From: a virus
Taxonomy: Duplodnaviria > Caudoviricetes
DNA: 64,000 nt
Direction: 5' to 3' (one strand)
IMG/VR virus record: IMGVR_UViG_2915650412_000004
Location: 1-64,000 of that record
In this document: positions 2,294-28,113 of the stretch, piece by piece
Layout of the letters: every line of letters starts with the position of its first letter
Numbering within the stretch: position 1 is the stretch's first letter
Program-made: the position numbers and the translations under genes
The notes under the pieces: model-generated
Told to the model about the DNA's origin: nothing
What the model saw: only the letters and a program-made list of their open reading frames with translations
Database searches by the model: none

Positions 2294-2778
2294 TCCGCGC
2301 CCTCCGATGGTGCAGAGGGGAGAGGACGCCAGTGGGTGGGGTGTTCTATAGTGAGGCTGTCGTAGTAATGACCATCCCAAACGTCGCGATATGTTGGCCC
2401 GCCGTCCATGTGAGGGTATAACTCATATTTTTTCCCCGCTGAGCATCGGAACGGCCATTTGCCGTCCCAACCGATGAACTCTGTCCCATCCTTCGGCGCG
2501 GTCTCAATCGGCAACCAGCCATCCGCGACCATTTTACCGGCGTCGGCAATATGGTCCGCTACAGGCTGAGACGAGAGGGCGCGGATAGCGGCGCGAACTA
2601 ATACCAGCAAGCGCATTTCCTTATTCGCGACAAACCCAGTTTCGTCATGGTCAGCGTCGGAGAGATTATCGAAATAAGTTTCGCATAGCAGTGATGGATA
2701 GCCGACGGGGCAAGTTTCGTCCTGTTGGATTTTGGTGCATTGGCAAGGCGCTGCGGATGGCTCAAGCGCCTCCATCAC
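2290..2778 (-). CDS. DUF551-like phage protein
   Basis: WLPIETAPKDGT...PTHWRPLP signature. Confidence 0.7.
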   Translation of the reverse strand: MMEALEPSAAPCQCTKIQQDETCPVGYPSLLCETYFDNLSDADHDETGFVANKEMRLLVLVRAAIRALSSQPVADHIADAGKMVADGWLPIETAPKDGTEFIGWDGKWPFRCSAGKKYELYPHMDGGPTYRDVWDGHYYDSLTIEHPTHWRPLPSAPSEGAE

Positions 2779-3041
2779 ACCGCCCTCCGCAGGCGACGGC
2801 GATTGTCGTTGGCTGGATTGCGACGCTGGCGTGGAGCGCCATAGCGGAACCTAACGCCGGTAATGCGCGCCAGTTCGAAAGCCGTGTCTCGCAGCGTCTC
2901 GGCTTCAGTGTGGTAGCCAAGAGCGCGCACGGCCTTTGAAATCGACAGGACCTGCGCGGCGGTCGTGCCTTGTTGCTGAAATTCAGCTGCGGTCAGGATG
3001 GGTGCCATAACGGCGTGCGTCGTCGATACATGTCTGTGCAT
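2775..3041 (-). CDS. Phage hypothetical protein
   Basis: ATG at 3041 behind a CACGAGGAG leader (3048-3056); ends PANDNRRRLRRAV. Confidence 0.65.
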   Translation of the reverse strand: MHRHVSTTHAVMAPILTAAEFQQQGTTAAQVLSISKAVRALGYHTEAETLRDTAFELARITGVRFRYGAPRQRRNPANDNRRRLRRAV

Positions 3042-3114
3042 GTCATTCTCCTCGTGTTTGGTGGGTGGTGATAGGTGTGCGCCGTGTTGCGGGGCAACAG
3101 GGCGCAGAAAAAGG

Positions 3115-3162
3115 TAGGCGGGCGAAGGAGGAAAGGTGTTCGTTTTCATCGAGGCCCGCCTA
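3115..3162 (-). ncRNA. Orphan TIGR stem-loop unit downstream of tasA (CCT instead of CCA boxes)
   Basis: Minus strand TAGGCG-GGCCT-CGATGAAAA-CGAACACCT-TTCCTCCTT-CGCC-CGCCTA; same 5/9/9/9/4 spacing as the other units. Confidence 0.65.
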
Positions 3163-3171
3163 GGCGTCAGC

Positions 3172-4146
3172 TTATGCCGCTCGACGCCATTCGAGATAGA
3201 GGTGCTTCACAAGACGCTTTTCAACGTAGCGGTGCGCACGGTTAGCTGCGTGCATCTTGTAGCTTTCCTTGCCGGTTGCGCTTTCAGTGACGGGCAGGCC
3301 GAGTTTTTCGGATTCGTAGCGGGCGCGCTCGGCGTAAACTTGCTGATAATAGGTAAGGTCCAGATCGGCCCGAACGTCTGCGCCGTATGCTGGACGCCAC
3401 TTTCCCATGCCTCCGATTACATGCTGGCGAGCATTCCAGCTGACCGAACGACGTTGGCGGTTGTAACCGTGTGAGATCCAGTCGTCAGCGGATGCGCTTT
3501 TACCTGGGTTGCCCTGACGGTTGCCGTCGATCACAGCGAGGCCAAGGCGCTTCCACACGGCGGACACTGATTTATAAGTACCGATATCGCCGCATTCGCC
3601 GACGATGGTGGCGAATGAAATGTCACCGAACCCTTTAACGCCTTTCACCCAGTCATAGACGGGGAGCCGTCGAGCAAGCTTTTCCATTGCCTTCTTGATT
3701 TCGGCGTCCTGCGATTCAAATGCGGCAATAGCGGGCGGGAAATGCCGAATAGTAGCGGCGAGGCGGGAAACGATTTCACCTGCCTTTATCTCTGCGATGG
3801 CTGCTTTGAATGCATCATCAACACGCTTTTCAGCGGCGTTAGACAGCTTTACGCGCTTGCGGCCAAATGCCGTCACCTTGTCATATGCGGAATCTTCCAC
3901 AAAGTCGGCATCGGTGCACAGCATACTGCGTGCCGCAGCTTTGGCTGCCAATATAAGCTTCGTCTTATTCTTGATGACGAACTGGCGCTCACGATGCAGG
4001 GCGACGATTTCGTCGATGATGCCTTCAGTTTCCGGGGTGGGTGCATAAGGAGCAAGCAGGACATGGCCGGACGACCATGCGGCTTGTGAGTTGTGGCCGA
4101 TTGCGACAGCGGCAGCAATGCTGGCAGGGTTAAGCGATACGTTCAT
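3172..4146 (-). CDS. tasA: TasA-like Nop/IS110-domain RNA-binding protein, no nuclease domain
   Basis: N-terminal coiled coil (IIDEIVALHRERQFVIKNKTKL), IS110/Nop helix-hairpin motif (WVKGVKGFGDISFATIVGECGD...VWKRLGL), C-terminal HAANRAHRYVEKRLVKHLYLEW; no DEDD RuvC or HNH motifs; flanked by TIGR units. Confidence 0.85.
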   Translation of the reverse strand: MNVSLNPASIAAAVAIGHNSQAAWSSGHVLLAPYAPTPETEGIIDEIVALHRERQFVIKNKTKLILAAKAAARSMLCTDADFVEDSAYDKVTAFGRKRVKLSNAAEKRVDDAFKAAIAEIKAGEIVSRLAATIRHFPPAIAAFESQDAEIKKAMEKLARRLPVYDWVKGVKGFGDISFATIVGECGDIGTYKSVSAVWKRLGLAVIDGNRQGNPGKSASADDWISHGYNRQRRSVSWNARQHVIGGMGKWRPAYGADVRADLDLTYYQQVYAERARYESEKLGLPVTESATGKESYKMHAANRAHRYVEKRLVKHLYLEWRRAA

Positions 4147-25842: not shown

Positions 25843-25971
25843 CTGCCCGTGCGCGGGAACCCAAAATATTCGCCGCGCTGCCTGTCCATTAACACCACAT
25901 TTATTGAGGCATTCCACATTCCTCTTGCCGCTACCAACGGCACACCGCAATCAACACGAGGAGAAAAACAG

Positions 25972-26478
25972 ATGCGTGACATCTGGTTCATTAGTGACAC
26001 CCACTTTGGGCATCAGAAAATCATCCCATACTGCCGACCGAAATTCTCCAGCCTCGAAGGGATGGAGCAAACCATCATCGACAACTGGAATGCTCACGTT
26101 AAGCCGCAGGACCTTGTTTATCACCTTGGTGATTTCGCATGGACGCCGAAAGATGCCAACCGTGTGCGGCCTAAGTTGAACGGTGCCATTCGATTGATCG
26201 TCGGCAACCACGATGACATTCCTGCACTGTGTTCCGCAGGGATGTTCCAGCGAGTGCAAATGTGGCGTCAGTTCGCGGAGATTGGCGTTACAGCTTCACA
26301 CGTGCCGATGAGGCAGGAGCAAATCAGGCACGGCGCAAAGAATGTTCATGGCCATGTCCACGGCAAGATTGATGGGCTGAACGATTTCCACTTTGATGTA
26401 TCTGTAGAAAGCACGGACTACAGGCCAGTTCACTACGACGTTATTGCTGCTTGGGCAGGCATCTCTCATGCCGCGTAA
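25972..26478 (+). CDS. Calcineurin-like metallophosphoesterase
   Basis: ISDTHFGH, LGDF, GNHD, SHVP, HGHVH. Confidence 0.88.
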   Translation: MRDIWFISDTHFGHQKIIPYCRPKFSSLEGMEQTIIDNWNAHVKPQDLVYHLGDFAWTPKDANRVRPKLNGAIRLIVGNHDDIPALCSAGMFQRVQMWRQFAEIGVTASHVPMRQEQIRHGAKNVHGHVHGKIDGLNDFHFDVSVESTDYRPVHYDVIAAWAGISHAA

Positions 26479-26983
26479 GCCACGCAGCCGCACACGCGCG
26501 CCTTCGTCTATGACCGCCACCACCACACAGATCACGCGCATCAACGGCGCCCGCGTCAAGATCACCACCAAGGCTGGTAAGGTGACGACCAAGCCAGCCC
26601 TGCCGCTCGAATGGGAATTGCAAGCAGCACAGGTTTCCGCATTGCGCCGACTGCCACAGTATCAACGTCAGTTCCTGCTGGCCGGTGACATGAACGCCAG
26701 CAAAAGAGGCCCACGGGCACAGGCCCAGGCAATCGCAACGGGAATGACCAGCGGCGAACCCGACCTCCGCATCTATGGCGAATACGGCCGACTACTACTG
26801 ATCGAGAACAAGGTTGGGCAGGGAAGGCTATCGCCGGCCCAGAAAGACCGCCATGCGGCCCTGGAGCGGCTTGGCTACACGGTTCTGGTCATTCGGGCCA
26901 CCACAACGACAGAAGCCGCTGAGAATGCCGTTACGGCGGTTCTGGGGTGGCTTGCAGAAACGGACGCCGCCAAGGCCGCCTAA
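26468..26983 (+). CDS. VRR-NUC domain nuclease
   Basis: GMTSGEPDL...IENKVGQGRLSPAQKDRH. Confidence 0.82.
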   Translation: MPRKPRSRTRAPSSMTATTTQITRINGARVKITTKAGKVTTKPALPLEWELQAAQVSALRRLPQYQRQFLLAGDMNASKRGPRAQAQAIATGMTSGEPDLRIYGEYGRLLLIENKVGQGRLSPAQKDRHAALERLGYTVLVIRATTTTEAAENAVTAVLGWLAETDAAKAA

Positions 26984-27012
26984 CCAACCAAACCAAAACA
27001 CGAGGATGACAT

Positions 27013-28113
27013 ATGAGAATTCAAAAAGCTGGTGATATTTACCTGAATGAAGTTGGCTCACCCGTTCGAACGTATCAGCGTTCCTTTGAGTATCGAGATA
27101 TTTCGGATGGCAAACTGAAAGCCGTTGATGATCTGATGCTGGAAATTGACGCACATCAGTTCGTCAACGAGATCAGTGCGCGTAGGATCGGATTTGTTGA
27201 TGGGCATTCCCGACAATACGACGCTTCCAACGATAATTCGCAGGAGTCGTTGAACGAGTATCACCCACGAATGAAGGGTGATCACGAATATCGAACCGAC
27301 ACCAGGTTTGAACGCGATGAAAACGGGAAGTATACGCTTTGTGCGGTGGTGCCGACAAAAGAAGATGAAAAGCCGAAAATTATCCGCACACCTGAAGATC
27401 GAGCATCTGGTCGGGATTTCTTTACAACCAAGACAGCCAAAGCAGAGCGGTTGCGTTCCCGAATGCGAAAGAAAATCGAAAAACGCCAATCCATTGGTGA
27501 TCCGAACTGCGTTCAATCGCGCGATGAGGACTTCCCGCTCCTTGCGGTTCTGCGCAGGGATAAGCGTGCCGATCTGATTGCAGCAGTTTTACAGTATCGT
27601 CAGTTGGTGGCGTTGTGCGAATCCGAGCCTCTGAAGGGCCAGAGCTATGGCGGGGCTGATGGCTCGGCTACGGTGTTTTATTCAAACTTTGAAGATGGGG
27701 AACTGGTTCACTCATCGAAGGCGCGGCGGTCTAAATCCGCTTACGATATTCCTGCGGTTCGTATTCGAGCGTCAATTATCAACGATCGAGGGGAGCAGGT
27801 GTCAGGTCGAACAGAGAGTATGCACGTCAAGTTAAACGAGGATACGCTTGCTGACTATATCGACAAAAAGCCCGTTCTGGCGCGTATCAGGTCAGCTTTG
27901 GGCGCATTGCTAGACCCGGTTGAAGACGCCGTTCTCGGTGGGCAGACGTTGGGTGCTATTGGTGAGCTAGATGGGCACTCTGGTCGAGTCGCCGAGATTT
28001 CAGGAAAGGCCCTTGTTTATCGCGGACTTACTGTTCTGGAGGGGTTTATGGGGAACATGAATTTGCTGCCTGCAAATAATAACCATTTGACGAATAACAA
28101 GAAAATAGCCTGA
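27013..28113 (+). CDS. Hypothetical protein at the late-activator position
   Basis: Last gene of the replication operon; C-terminal helix-turn-helix-like segment (VLGGQTLGAIG...GKALVYRGL); function inferred from position only. Confidence 0.6.
   Translation: MRIQKAGDIYLNEVGSPVRTYQRSFEYRDISDGKLKAVDDLMLEIDAHQFVNEISARRIGFVDGHSRQYDASNDNSQESLNEYHPRMKGDHEYRTDTRFERDENGKYTLCAVVPTKEDEKPKIIRTPEDRASGRDFFTTKTAKAERLRSRMRKKIEKRQSIGDPNCVQSRDEDFPLLAVLRRDKRADLIAAVLQYRQLVALCESEPLKGQSYGGADGSATVFYSNFEDGELVHSSKARRSKSAYDIPAVRIRASIINDRGEQVSGRTESMHVKLNEDTLADYIDKKPVLARIRSALGALLDPVEDAVLGGQTLGAIGELDGHSGRVAEISGKALVYRGLTVLEGFMGNMNLLPANNNHLTNNKKIA

What the first reader, a model, noticed from the sequence alone, without database searches (positions are those of the whole stretch)
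2775..28113. Hard-coded ssrA-like motifs (ANDN...AA) in a dozen early and middle phage proteins
Seen: (A/S/E)NDN occurs in ORFs 2775 (PANDN), 6030 (ENDN), 9199, 10455 (LANDNGQREAA-stop), 11715, 12341, 15442, 16146 (twice), 19530 (GANDNQDLLGRVAA-stop), 20108 (PANDNFRSAA-stop), 21810 (AANDND) and 27013. It is mostly near the C-terminus and uses mixed AAT/AAC and GAC/GAT codons, so it is conserved as peptide. I noticed none in structural or satellite genes. Established: the Caulobacter tmRNA tag is AANDNFAEEFAVAA; its N-terminal part binds the SspB adaptor and the terminal AA binds ClpX. Inference: the phage pre-tags replication and modification enzymes for SspB/ClpXP turnover, or uses them to titrate SspB.
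Basis: partly seen in the sequence, partly recalled or inferred. Interest (0 to 1): 0.7.

Follow-up and report, generated by a model that had tools for sequence, protein, structure and literature searches.

The report
Phage proteins copy host tmRNA tag
A prophage of a Brucella-like soil bacterium has written the first four residues of its host's tmRNA "destroy-me" tag (Ala-Asn-Asp-Asn), sometimes with the tag's Ala-Ala end at the native distance, into the loose ends of about fifteen DNA-handling proteins; this probably connects them to the host SspB-ClpXP protease, but no binding or degradation has been measured.

Summary
The window lies in a prophage on a 110-kb contig. [A/S]NDN occurs 15 times in that contig's proteins against 0.46 expected from the rest of the genome. 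It is always in the coding frame, with mixed codons, and 11 of the 15 copies lie in the last 40 residues. The host's own tmRNA tag, read from the same assembly, is ANDNNAKGYALAA. The host also has SspB-alpha, ClpX and ClpP. Three window proteins, plus two elsewhere in the genome, end in ANDN, 3-6 residues, then AA: complete tag look-alikes.

New here:
- A pattern scan of 401 family genomes finds each genome's native tag plus about 113 extra such tails, against 13 control hits. The extras clump in single prophage-sized stretches, and their length peaks at 12 residues, the native tag length.
- About 250 non-alpha Pseudomonadota genomes show no clumps.
- The motif is separate from clamp-binding motifs, which sit beside it in some tails.

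Best reading (about 0.55): a short linear motif that docks on SspB-alpha, with the complete mimics acting as ClpXP degrons. Nothing has been tested experimentally.

This scan has noted the same phenomenon at least 16 times on other DNA (16-3-like rhizobial phages, a satellite, a Pseudomonas phage). I found no paper describing it.

The parts
2775..3149 (-). 124-aa basic protein of unknown function. ANDN at 2802-2813, 12 residues from the C-terminus; the tail after it is Arg-rich and ends AV.
   Evidence: no Pfam or PHROG hit
6030..6398 (-). 122-aa protein with a weak wHTH hit. ENDN variant at 6078-6089. The orthologue in a genome of the same genus (G100) has ANDN there and ends AA.
9199..9966 (+). 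255-aa protein of unknown function. SNDN at 9745-9756, 73 residues from the end; the protein ends AA.
10146..11240 (+). AAA_24 ATPase (start may be 10455). ANDN at 11208-11219 followed by 6 residues ending AA-stop: a complete tag mimic of 10 residues.
   Evidence: the Pfam domain ends at residue 331 of 364
11715..12266 (+). DUF669 / phage SSB-like protein. ANDN at 12180-12191 in a Pro/Ala-rich tail, 28 residues from the end.
   Evidence: the domain ends at residue 123 of 183
12341..13186 (+). 281-aa phrog_18122 protein. ANDN at 13070-13081, 38 residues from the end; the protein ends AA.
13419..14510 (+). Phage-encoded DNA polymerase III beta sliding clamp. It carries no motif; listed as context and as a candidate rival hub.
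   Evidence: all three beta-clamp domains
15442..16146 (+). HNH endonuclease (the longest ORF starts at 15121; GTG 15442 is the likely start). ANDN at 15454-15465, near the N-terminus. The Falsochrobactrum orthologue also has ANDN near its N-terminus.
16146..17870 (+). ResIII/DEAD helicase. ANDN at 17763-17774 and SNDN at 17787-17798 in the C-terminal tail. Both copies are kept in orthologues L007 and L015.
19530..20111 (+). MT-A70 DNA methyltransferase. ANDN at 20070-20081 followed by 9 residues ending AA-stop: a complete mimic of 13 residues, the native tag length, containing a DLLG patch.
20108..21496 (+). DUF4942 + class I methyltransferase. ANDN at 21467-21478 followed by 5 residues ending AA-stop: a complete mimic of 9 residues.
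   Evidence: AF2: last strand 445-451, pLDDT below 50 for residues 457-462
21810..22517 (+). phrog_757 DNA methyltransferase. Starts MNDN (21810-21821). ANDN at 22467-22478, 16 residues from the end; ends AS.
23201..25555 (+). Prim-Pol/PriCT-2/DUF3987 primase. It has an internal DNDN at 24107-24118 (YNDN in the orthologue), inside a conserved stretch, so probably a fold element and not the motif. The protein ends AA.
27013..28113 (+). 366-aa protein of unknown function just upstream of the terminase. SNDN at 27226-27237. Four homologues carry ANDN at a different, mutually aligned linker, so the motif has moved within the family.

Best explanation
[A/S]-N-D-N is a short linear peptide motif under selection in the flexible ends of the prophage's non-structural, DNA-handling proteins. 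It copies the head of the host's tmRNA (ssrA) tag.

Proposed mechanism (inferred, not shown): the host adaptor SspB-alpha, which normally grips the head of the tag, binds the motif and tethers the carrier to ClpX through its own C-terminal ClpX-binding tail. Where the motif is followed after 3-9 residues by a C-terminal Ala-Ala, the tail is a complete bipartite degron and the protein is degraded quickly by ClpXP. This applies to three window proteins: the AAA_24 ATPase and the MT-A70 and DUF4942 methyltransferases. Carriers with the head alone would be tethered weakly, degraded only if another ClpX-accessible end exists, or would simply compete for SspB.

The net effect would be that the lifetime of the phage's early proteins depends on the host's tag-disposal machinery and on how busy it is.
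For: Shown:
- The motif is peptide-level and 33-fold enriched, and sits in terminal tails outside the Pfam domains.
- The host tag read from the same assembly is ANDNNAKGYALAA.
- The host has one SspB, of the alpha type: it matches PDB 2QAS/2QAZ and 2NYS and has a C-terminal basic tail. It lies 2.9 kb from the tmRNA gene. The host also has clpP-clpX.
- The pattern for ANDN, 3-9 residues, AA, stop finds in this genome only the tmRNA tag ORF and five hard-coded tails, with 0 hits for the reversed control.
- In 401 family genomes almost every genome gives one hit, its native tag. There are about 113 extra hits against 13 control hits. Of 34 listed extras, 29 are in frame (37% expected by chance).
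- The extras clump in one 40-55 kb stretch per genome.
- Tail lengths peak at 12 residues, the native tag length, and fall to chance beyond 15.
- About 250 non-alpha Pseudomonadota genomes have no clump.
- The tail follows the phage background, not the protein family. Among DUF4942 methyltransferase homologues, 18 of 120 have an inserted [AST]NDN tail, and the relatives without it sit in unrelated phages.
- In the MT-A70 family 93 of 120 homologues keep A-NDN 10-14 residues from the end in 84 of those 93, while the residues between vary freely.
- Proteins ending in AA are 4.5-5 times commoner on the phage contig than in the host, whether or not the stop overlaps the next start codon.
- Unrelated small elements in the same genome also carry the motif, including a portal that ends in a complete mimic.

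From the literature: E. coli SspB binds the first seven tag residues and tethers the substrate to the ClpX N domain (PMC9963277). The Caulobacter tag is AANDNFAEEFAVAA, and deleting sspB slows degradation of a protein carrying that tag (PMC9393093).
Against: - No binding or degradation has been measured for any of these proteins.
- Only four residues are shared with the tag. The next tag residues are not copied, and a Pro at +2 (8 of 15 copies) is not in this host's tag.
- That SspB-alpha needs the NDN residues is my recollection of Lessner et al. 2007 and Chien et al. 2007. Neither paper is held in the library.
- Ten of the 15 motifs are not followed by AA at tag distance; two are near an N-terminus or internal.
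- The coupling of NDN with an AA end seen in the DUF4942 family (16/18 against 47/100, P = 0.0015) is not repeated in the MT-A70 family (49/93 against 20/27).
- Some of the terminal codons overlap the Shine-Dalgarno sequence of the next gene.
- The motif often sits next to clamp-binding motifs in a phage that encodes its own clamp, which also fits a replisome-related partner.
From memory, that host's tag does not contain ANDN.
Confidence: 0.55

Rival explanations
1. The motif binds SspB but acts mainly as a decoy. Abundant early proteins carrying the head without a usable ClpX end occupy SspB. This slows disposal of tagged host proteins, protects other phage proteins, or disturbs ClpXP-dependent host regulation.
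For: Ten of 15 motifs lack an AA end at tag distance. The helicase and the L007 SSB-like protein carry two copies in tandem, which suits the dimeric adaptor. The host has a single SspB.
Against: Complete mimics with native spacing are strongly over-represented and length-constrained. That would be pointless for a pure decoy. AA ends are enriched across the phage.
Confidence: 0.15
2. ANDN docks on a different hub, such as a replisome or clamp-associated factor of the host or a phage protein, and its likeness to the tag head is coincidental.
For: Nearly all carriers are DNA-metabolism enzymes. The phage encodes a beta clamp. ANDN sits directly beside canonical or near-canonical clamp-binding motifs in several tails.
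Against: - ANDN is hydrophilic, and most copies occur without any clamp motif, so it is not itself the clamp motif.
- Canonical QxSLF/QLxLF motifs are used separately.
- No gene is shared by all motif-bearing elements of this genome apart from virion genes and one carrier family, and no second SspB-like gene exists.
- Portals and an AlpA regulator also carry the motif.
- The constrained distance to a C-terminal AA, equal to the native tag length, is not predicted by this idea.
- The restriction to hosts whose tag starts ANDN would be a coincidence.
Confidence: 0.2
3. The repeat is a nucleic-acid signal (promoter, RBS enhancer or recombination site), or a by-product of translational coupling and composition, with no function as a peptide.
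For: The last codons of several tails overlap the Shine-Dalgarno sequence and the ATGA start of the next gene. N and D have only two codons each, so the DNA copies look alike.
Against: - All copies are in the coding frame of genes that lie in three different absolute frames, at variable distance from the next start, with all codon combinations.
- Permutations of ANDN are absent.
- AA-end enrichment holds for uncoupled genes as well.
- The motif occurs at N-termini and at linkers.
Confidence: 0.03

Closest known systems
Native tmRNA (ssrA) tag read by SspB and ClpXP, alphaproteobacterial version (this host ANDNNAKGYALAA; Caulobacter AANDNFAEEFAVAA)
   Same: The head is identical (A-N-D-N). The complete mimics end in Ala-Ala and have the same total length, 9-13 residues here and a mode of 12 across the family. 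They sit at an exposed C-terminus, and the host has all the readers.
   Different: The tail is encoded in the gene, not added by trans-translation. The middle of the tag is not copied. Most copies have the head only, some of them N-terminal or internal. The motif is spread over about 15 unrelated proteins of one mobile element.
Natural, gene-encoded SspB cargo and ClpXP substrates of phages (E. coli RseA N-fragment; lambda O, MuA, Mu repressor variants). Named from my own knowledge, not checked here.
   Same: A hard-coded adaptor- or ClpX-recognition peptide sets the lifetime of a regulatory or replication protein. Phage replication and transposition proteins are classic ClpXP substrates.
   Different: Those are single proteins with idiosyncratic signals that do not copy the tag head. 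Here one four-residue copy of the tag head recurs across much of a phage's early proteome and in unrelated elements of the same host family.
Bacterial beta-clamp-binding motif (QL[SD]LF type) in C-terminal tails
   Same: It is a short linear motif at flexible ends of DNA-metabolism proteins. It is present in this element (the SRAP protein ends QASLF) and lies directly after ANDN in tails of other genomes.
   Different: ANDN has none of the hydrophobic consensus and usually occurs without it. The two are separate modules that can share one tail.

Membership tests
ssrA-type bipartite degron (SspB-binding head + ClpX-binding C-terminal Ala-Ala) | Head identical to the adaptor-binding head of the host's own tag | tested here: met
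   ARAGORN reads the host tag as ANDNNAKGYALAA. The 15 motifs are [A/S]NDN, 11 of them ANDN.
ssrA-type bipartite degron (SspB-binding head + ClpX-binding C-terminal Ala-Ala) | Free C-terminal Ala-Ala | tested here: inconclusive
   Met for 3 window carriers at tag distance (10146, 19530, 20108), plus one on the contig outside the window and one on C23. Four further carriers (9199, 12341, the primase, whose own NDN looks like a fold element, and AlpA outside the window) end AA far from the motif. Not met for the rest.
ssrA-type bipartite degron (SspB-binding head + ClpX-binding C-terminal Ala-Ala) | Head-to-end spacing as in native tags | tested here: met
   Complete mimics here are 9-13 residues long. 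A hand tally of about 65 in-frame tails peaks at 12. For gaps of 28-58 bases only 8 of 30 hits are in frame, which is chance level. In the MT-A70 family 84 of 93 tails are 10-14 residues long.
ssrA-type bipartite degron (SspB-binding head + ClpX-binding C-terminal Ala-Ala) | Motif lies in an exposed, unstructured segment | tested here: met
   The motifs lie beyond the Pfam/PHROG domain ends. In the AF2 model of the DUF4942 methyltransferase the last strand is 445-451 and pLDDT is below 50 for residues 457-462. Tails are hypervariable among orthologues.
ssrA-type bipartite degron (SspB-binding head + ClpX-binding C-terminal Ala-Ala) | Host encodes tmRNA, SspB, ClpX and ClpP | tested here: met
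ssrA-type bipartite degron (SspB-binding head + ClpX-binding C-terminal Ala-Ala) | Physical binding of the motif to SspB-alpha | not testable with these tools
The papers defining SspB-alpha specificity are not held.
ssrA-type bipartite degron (SspB-binding head + ClpX-binding C-terminal Ala-Ala) | SspB- and ClpXP-dependent degradation | not testable with these tools
   Needs experiments.
beta-clamp-binding motif | Gln followed by spaced hydrophobic residues (QL[SD]LF-like) | tested here: not met
   ANDN has no hydrophobic residue. Canonical clamp motifs occur separately in the same tails.
repeated DNA/RNA signal | Occurs independently of reading frame and strand, with conserved bases at synonymous sites | tested here: not met
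   15 of 17 AAYGAYAAY sites in the window are in the frame of a long ORF. All codon combinations are used.

The most novel reading that the evidence does not exclude
Temperate phages and satellites of rhizobial bacteria use a shared 'degron code' copied from the host tmRNA tag. Because their early proteins compete with genuinely tagged host proteins for SspB and ClpXP, the lifetime of the phage replication, recombination, methylation and excision proteins would rise when the host's ribosome-rescue and proteolysis system is overloaded. The phage would thus get a built-in sensor of host stress. Where a clamp-binding motif sits between the head and the Ala-Ala end, molecules engaged on the clamp would be shielded from degradation and free ones removed.
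Probability: 0.15. Interest if true: 0.9.

Novelty: new variant of a known kind. Interest (0 to 1): 0.68.

Why it matters
If the tails are real SspB/ClpXP signals, this would be the first case known to me of a bacterial virus copying a host degradation tag across much of its early proteome. It would be a bacterial counterpart of the short-linear-motif mimicry common in eukaryotic viruses.

It would give a simple, testable rule for the stability of phage proteins in alphaproteobacteria, which include plant symbionts, Agrobacterium and Brucella relatives. It would also explain why some phage enzymes are hard to express stably, supply natural tunable degrons for these hosts, and link phage development to ribosome rescue. 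The family-wide scan shows that this is a recurrent trait of rhizobial mobile elements, not a quirk of one phage.

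Tried and rejected
1. DNA-level repeat: rejected. The motif is frame-locked, its codons are mixed, and permutations are absent.

2. AA ends as a side effect of the overlapping Shine-Dalgarno/ATGA of the next gene: rejected as the whole explanation. Enrichment is 4.5-fold in coupled genes and 5-fold in uncoupled genes.

3. ANDN as the clamp-binding motif of the phage clamp: rejected, because canonical clamp motifs sit beside it.

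4. A phage-encoded SspB: none found; the genome has a single PF04386 hit, on C22.

5. 'Block loss of the motif in close relatives': my first reading was wrong. The motif-less loci share only the DUF4942 methyltransferase with this phage. The result shows that the tail follows the phage background, not that a lineage lost it.

6. NDN-AA coupling: significant in the DUF4942 family but not replicated in the MT-A70 family, so I do not rely on it.

8. Literature: seven full-text searches found no paper on phage ANDN tag mimicry. Lessner 2007 and Chien 2007 (PNAS and Structure) are not held. One apparent hit was a false friend (SSPB = site-specific placement bias).

9. megablast of 9.4 kb against the phage collection: no match.

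Full report
**What the window is.** The window is G000:C28:16171-80170, part of a 109.6-kb contig of a 4.29-Mb, 57% G+C genome. It holds a temperate phage. On the minus strand are a CI-like repressor (7081-7866) and small regulators. On the plus strand is a replication/recombination/modification module:
- AAA_24 ATPase
- DUF669 SSB-like protein
- a phage-encoded beta sliding clamp
- PD-(D/E)XK nuclease
- HNH endonuclease
- ResIII/DEAD helicase
- an exonuclease
- three DNA methyltransferases in a row
- Prim-Pol primase
- a phosphoesterase

Virion genes follow (terminase 29392, capsids, tape-measure proteins, portal 47365, S49 protease). The closest named relatives of the phage genes are in Falsochrobactrum; more distant ones are in Mesorhizobium, Aminobacter and Rhizobium. 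The host is therefore a Brucella-like member of the Rhizobiales.

**Checking the observation.** Six-frame translation finds NDN 17 times in the window.

I made a crude gene set for the whole assembly (longest non-overlapping ORFs). In it, [A/S]NDN occurs 15 times in the 32,668 residues of contig C28 and 18 times in the remaining 1.28 million residues. That is 33-fold, Poisson P = 4e-18. ANDN occurs 11 times, while its eleven permutations occur 0 or 1 time each. Eleven of the 15 copies lie within the last 40 residues (P = 1.5e-6).

Six of the 18 'host' copies are in two small phage-like elements on C23 and C1, which carry an AAA_25 protein and a portal or capsid. The true host background is therefore at the level expected from composition. 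The motif is a peptide-level feature of mobile elements, with the consensus [P/A]-[A/S]-N-D-N-x-(P).

**The host's own tag and its readers.** ARAGORN finds one permuted (alpha-type) tmRNA gene on C22, with the tag ANDNNAKGYALAA. The genome has one SspB gene, 2.9 kb from the tmRNA gene. Its product matches the solved SspB-alpha structures of Agrobacterium (2NYS) and Caulobacter (2QAS, 2QAZ) and ends in a basic tail like the ClpX-binding tail. clpP and clpX are present. The motif thus equals the first four residues of the host's tag, and all the known readers of that tag are there.

**Complete tag look-alikes.** A DNA pattern for ANDN, three to nine residues, Ala-Ala, stop (GCNAAYGAYAAYN{9,27}GCNGCNTRA) matches six places in the genome. 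These are the tmRNA tag ORF itself and five protein tails:
- AAA_24 ATPase (in the window)
- MT-A70 methyltransferase (in the window)
- DUF4942 methyltransferase (in the window)
- a phrog_704 exonuclease on C28 outside the window
- the portal of the C23 element

The reversed control pattern matches nowhere.

**How general is it?** I ran the same pattern over 401 genomes of the GTDB family.
- It hits 379 genomes, almost always once, and the listed single hits are the native tags (two main types, 12 and 13 residues).
- By my hand count of the table there are about 113 further hits, against 13 for the reversed control.
- Of 34 extra hits whose sequence was printed, 29 are in frame without a stop. 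Chance would give 37%.
- The extras are clumped. Four of the five genomes of the window's own genus have 4-6 hits. In five other genera the extras of a genome lie within one 40-55 kb stretch, for example six in G290:C16 and five in G400:C9.

In a sample of the phylum, about 150 alphaproteobacterial genomes again show their native tag, with clumps only in Rhizobiales (G650, four in 36 kb). About 250 non-alpha genomes show about 25 scattered single hits, never more than two, against 5 control hits.

**Spacing.** I counted the in-frame extra tails printed by total length:

| Length (residues) | 9 | 10 | 11 | 12 | 13 | 14 | 15 |
|---|---|---|---|---|---|---|---|
| Tails | 3 | 4 | 14 | 19 | 13 | 10 | 2 |

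This is a hand tally and a lower bound, because 342 matches were not printed. The mode equals the native tag length. A scan for longer gaps (28-58 bases, 251 genomes) gives 30 hits against 10 control hits, and only 8 are in frame (27%; chance 32%). Complete tails therefore essentially stop at about 15 residues.

Independently, 93 of the 120 closest MT-A70 homologues carry NDN right after the conserved core. Ala precedes it in 89 of them, and the distance to the C-terminus is 10-14 residues in 84, although the residues in between vary freely. A constrained distance between the head and a free Ala-Ala end is what a two-reader signal (SspB on the head, ClpX on the end) predicts. It is not what a motif for some unrelated partner predicts.

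**The tail follows the phage, not the protein family.** Among 120 homologues of the DUF4942 methyltransferase the conserved core ends at the same place. 102 have a 3-5 residue tail, and 18 have an inserted [A/S/T]NDN tail. The motif-bearing loci are all this phage type with 11-12 motifs each: the window, the Falsochrobactrum ovis prophage L007 (the same contig as L021), and IMG/VR contig L015. Some of those motifs sit on carriers that the window lacks. The motif-less homologues sit in unrelated phages that share only this gene.

Within the family of the 27013 protein, the motif sits at an aligned linker in four members. The window's copy has lost it there and has SNDN about 150 residues upstream. 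Such turnover is typical of short linear motifs.

**Ala-Ala ends.** 20 of 133 C28 proteins end in AA, against 3.3% of host proteins. The last codons often overlap the Shine-Dalgarno sequence and the ATGA start of the next gene. I therefore split genes by whether the stop abuts a start codon. The enrichment holds in both classes: 19.6% against 5.1% (P = 4e-4), and 12.2% against 2.7% (P = 1e-4). The link between NDN and AA is significant in the DUF4942 family (P = 0.0015), but it is absent in the MT-A70 family, where motif-less members end in AA even more often. I therefore treat the two enrichments as parallel features of the phage, not as proven coupling.

**Rivals.**
- A nucleic-acid signal is excluded by the frame lock and the codon mix.
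- A clamp-binding motif is excluded because canonical clamp motifs occur next to ANDN. The SRAP protein on C28 ends SNDN, four residues, then QASLF. Tails in G290 and G020 read ANDN, then QLTLF or QLSLF, then AA. 25 of 93 MT-A70 tails, including the window's, hold a DLLG/DLFG/LPLF patch.
- A different hub remains possible (about 0.2). The carriers are DNA enzymes and the phage has its own clamp. However, no candidate gene is shared by all motif-bearing elements, portals and an AlpA regulator also carry the motif, and this idea does not explain the native spacing or the host range.
- SspB binding used mainly for titration (about 0.15) fits the many head-only copies and the tandem copies in the helicase.

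**Structure.** An AlphaFold2 model of the DUF4942 methyltransferase built from 47 homologues (mean pLDDT 79) ends its last strand at residue 451. Confidence falls to 65 for residues 451-460 and below 50 for residues 457-462. The mimic is a floppy appendage.

**What is shown and what is inferred.**
- Shown: the motif, its statistics, its identity with the host tag head, its placement in tails, the native spacing, its distribution across genomes, and the presence of the readers.
- Taken from the literature: E. coli SspB binds the head of the tag and tethers it to ClpX (PMC9963277). The Caulobacter tag sequence and the sspB effect on degradation of a protein carrying that tag come from PMC9393093.
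- From memory only: that SspB-alpha needs the NDN residues (Lessner 2007; Chien 2007).
- Inferred: binding of the phage tails to SspB, their degradation, and any biological purpose.

**Known or new.** Seven full-text searches found no description of this. This scan itself has noted the same phenomenon at least 16 times in at least 14 other genomes. These are mostly 16-3-like rhizobial phages, plus a satellite whose portal ends in a complete mimic and a Pseudomonas phage; all are untested.

This report adds:
- a further phage lineage in a Brucella-like host
- the family- and phylum-wide pattern scans with controls
- the spacing distribution
- the separation from clamp-binding motifs
- the control for translational coupling
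- one negative result, the unreplicated NDN-AA coupling

Noticed in passing
window 13419-14510 (+); L002:9372-10049 (-) = C28:89542-90219; window 20082-20108: The phage encodes its own DNA polymerase III beta clamp. An SRAP (YedK-like) protein on the same contig ends in a canonical clamp-binding QASLF right after SNDN. The MT-A70 tail holds a DLLG patch between ANDN and the final AA. Tails in other genomes read ANDN + QLTLF/QLSLF + AA. Why the tag head and clamp motifs share tails is unexplained.
   Followed up: partly
window 31400-47350: The virion region has two sets of genes: terminase 29392, then an HTH_36 protein, capsid 34466 and tape measure 38250; a 48% G+C island with a HATPase protein at 41931; a tyrosine integrase at 46117; then portal 47365, S49 protease and a second tape measure at 56380. 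It looks like a second element (a satellite or a defective phage) inserted between terminase and portal. It carries no ANDN motif.
   Followed up: no
window 19530-22517: Three DNA methyltransferase genes lie in a row (MT-A70, DUF4942 + class I, phrog_757). All carry the motif, and the first two overlap by ATGA.
   Followed up: partly
L004 (G000:C23:226000-245000) and L005 (G000:C1:576000-595900): Two small phage-like elements (AAA_25 protein, portal or HK97-type capsid) also carry [AS]NDN motifs. The C23 portal ends in a complete 12-residue tag mimic, and the DNA of that tail is identical in four of the five species of the genus sampled.
   Followed up: partly
G000:C22:132953-136749 (outside the window): The host's tmRNA gene and its sspB gene lie only 2.9 kb apart.
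   Followed up: no
G035:C3:5318-5766 and G377:C2:81868-82276 (other genomes of the family): Two tag-coding ORFs about 400 bp apart encode slightly different tags (one ending KEYALAA, the other KGYALAA). They may be tandem tmRNA coding pieces.
   Followed up: no
window 2775-2813 (-): The small basic protein ends in ANDN followed by an Arg-rich tail ending AV. From memory this resembles the basic MuA-type ClpX recognition class rather than the LAA class.
   Followed up: no
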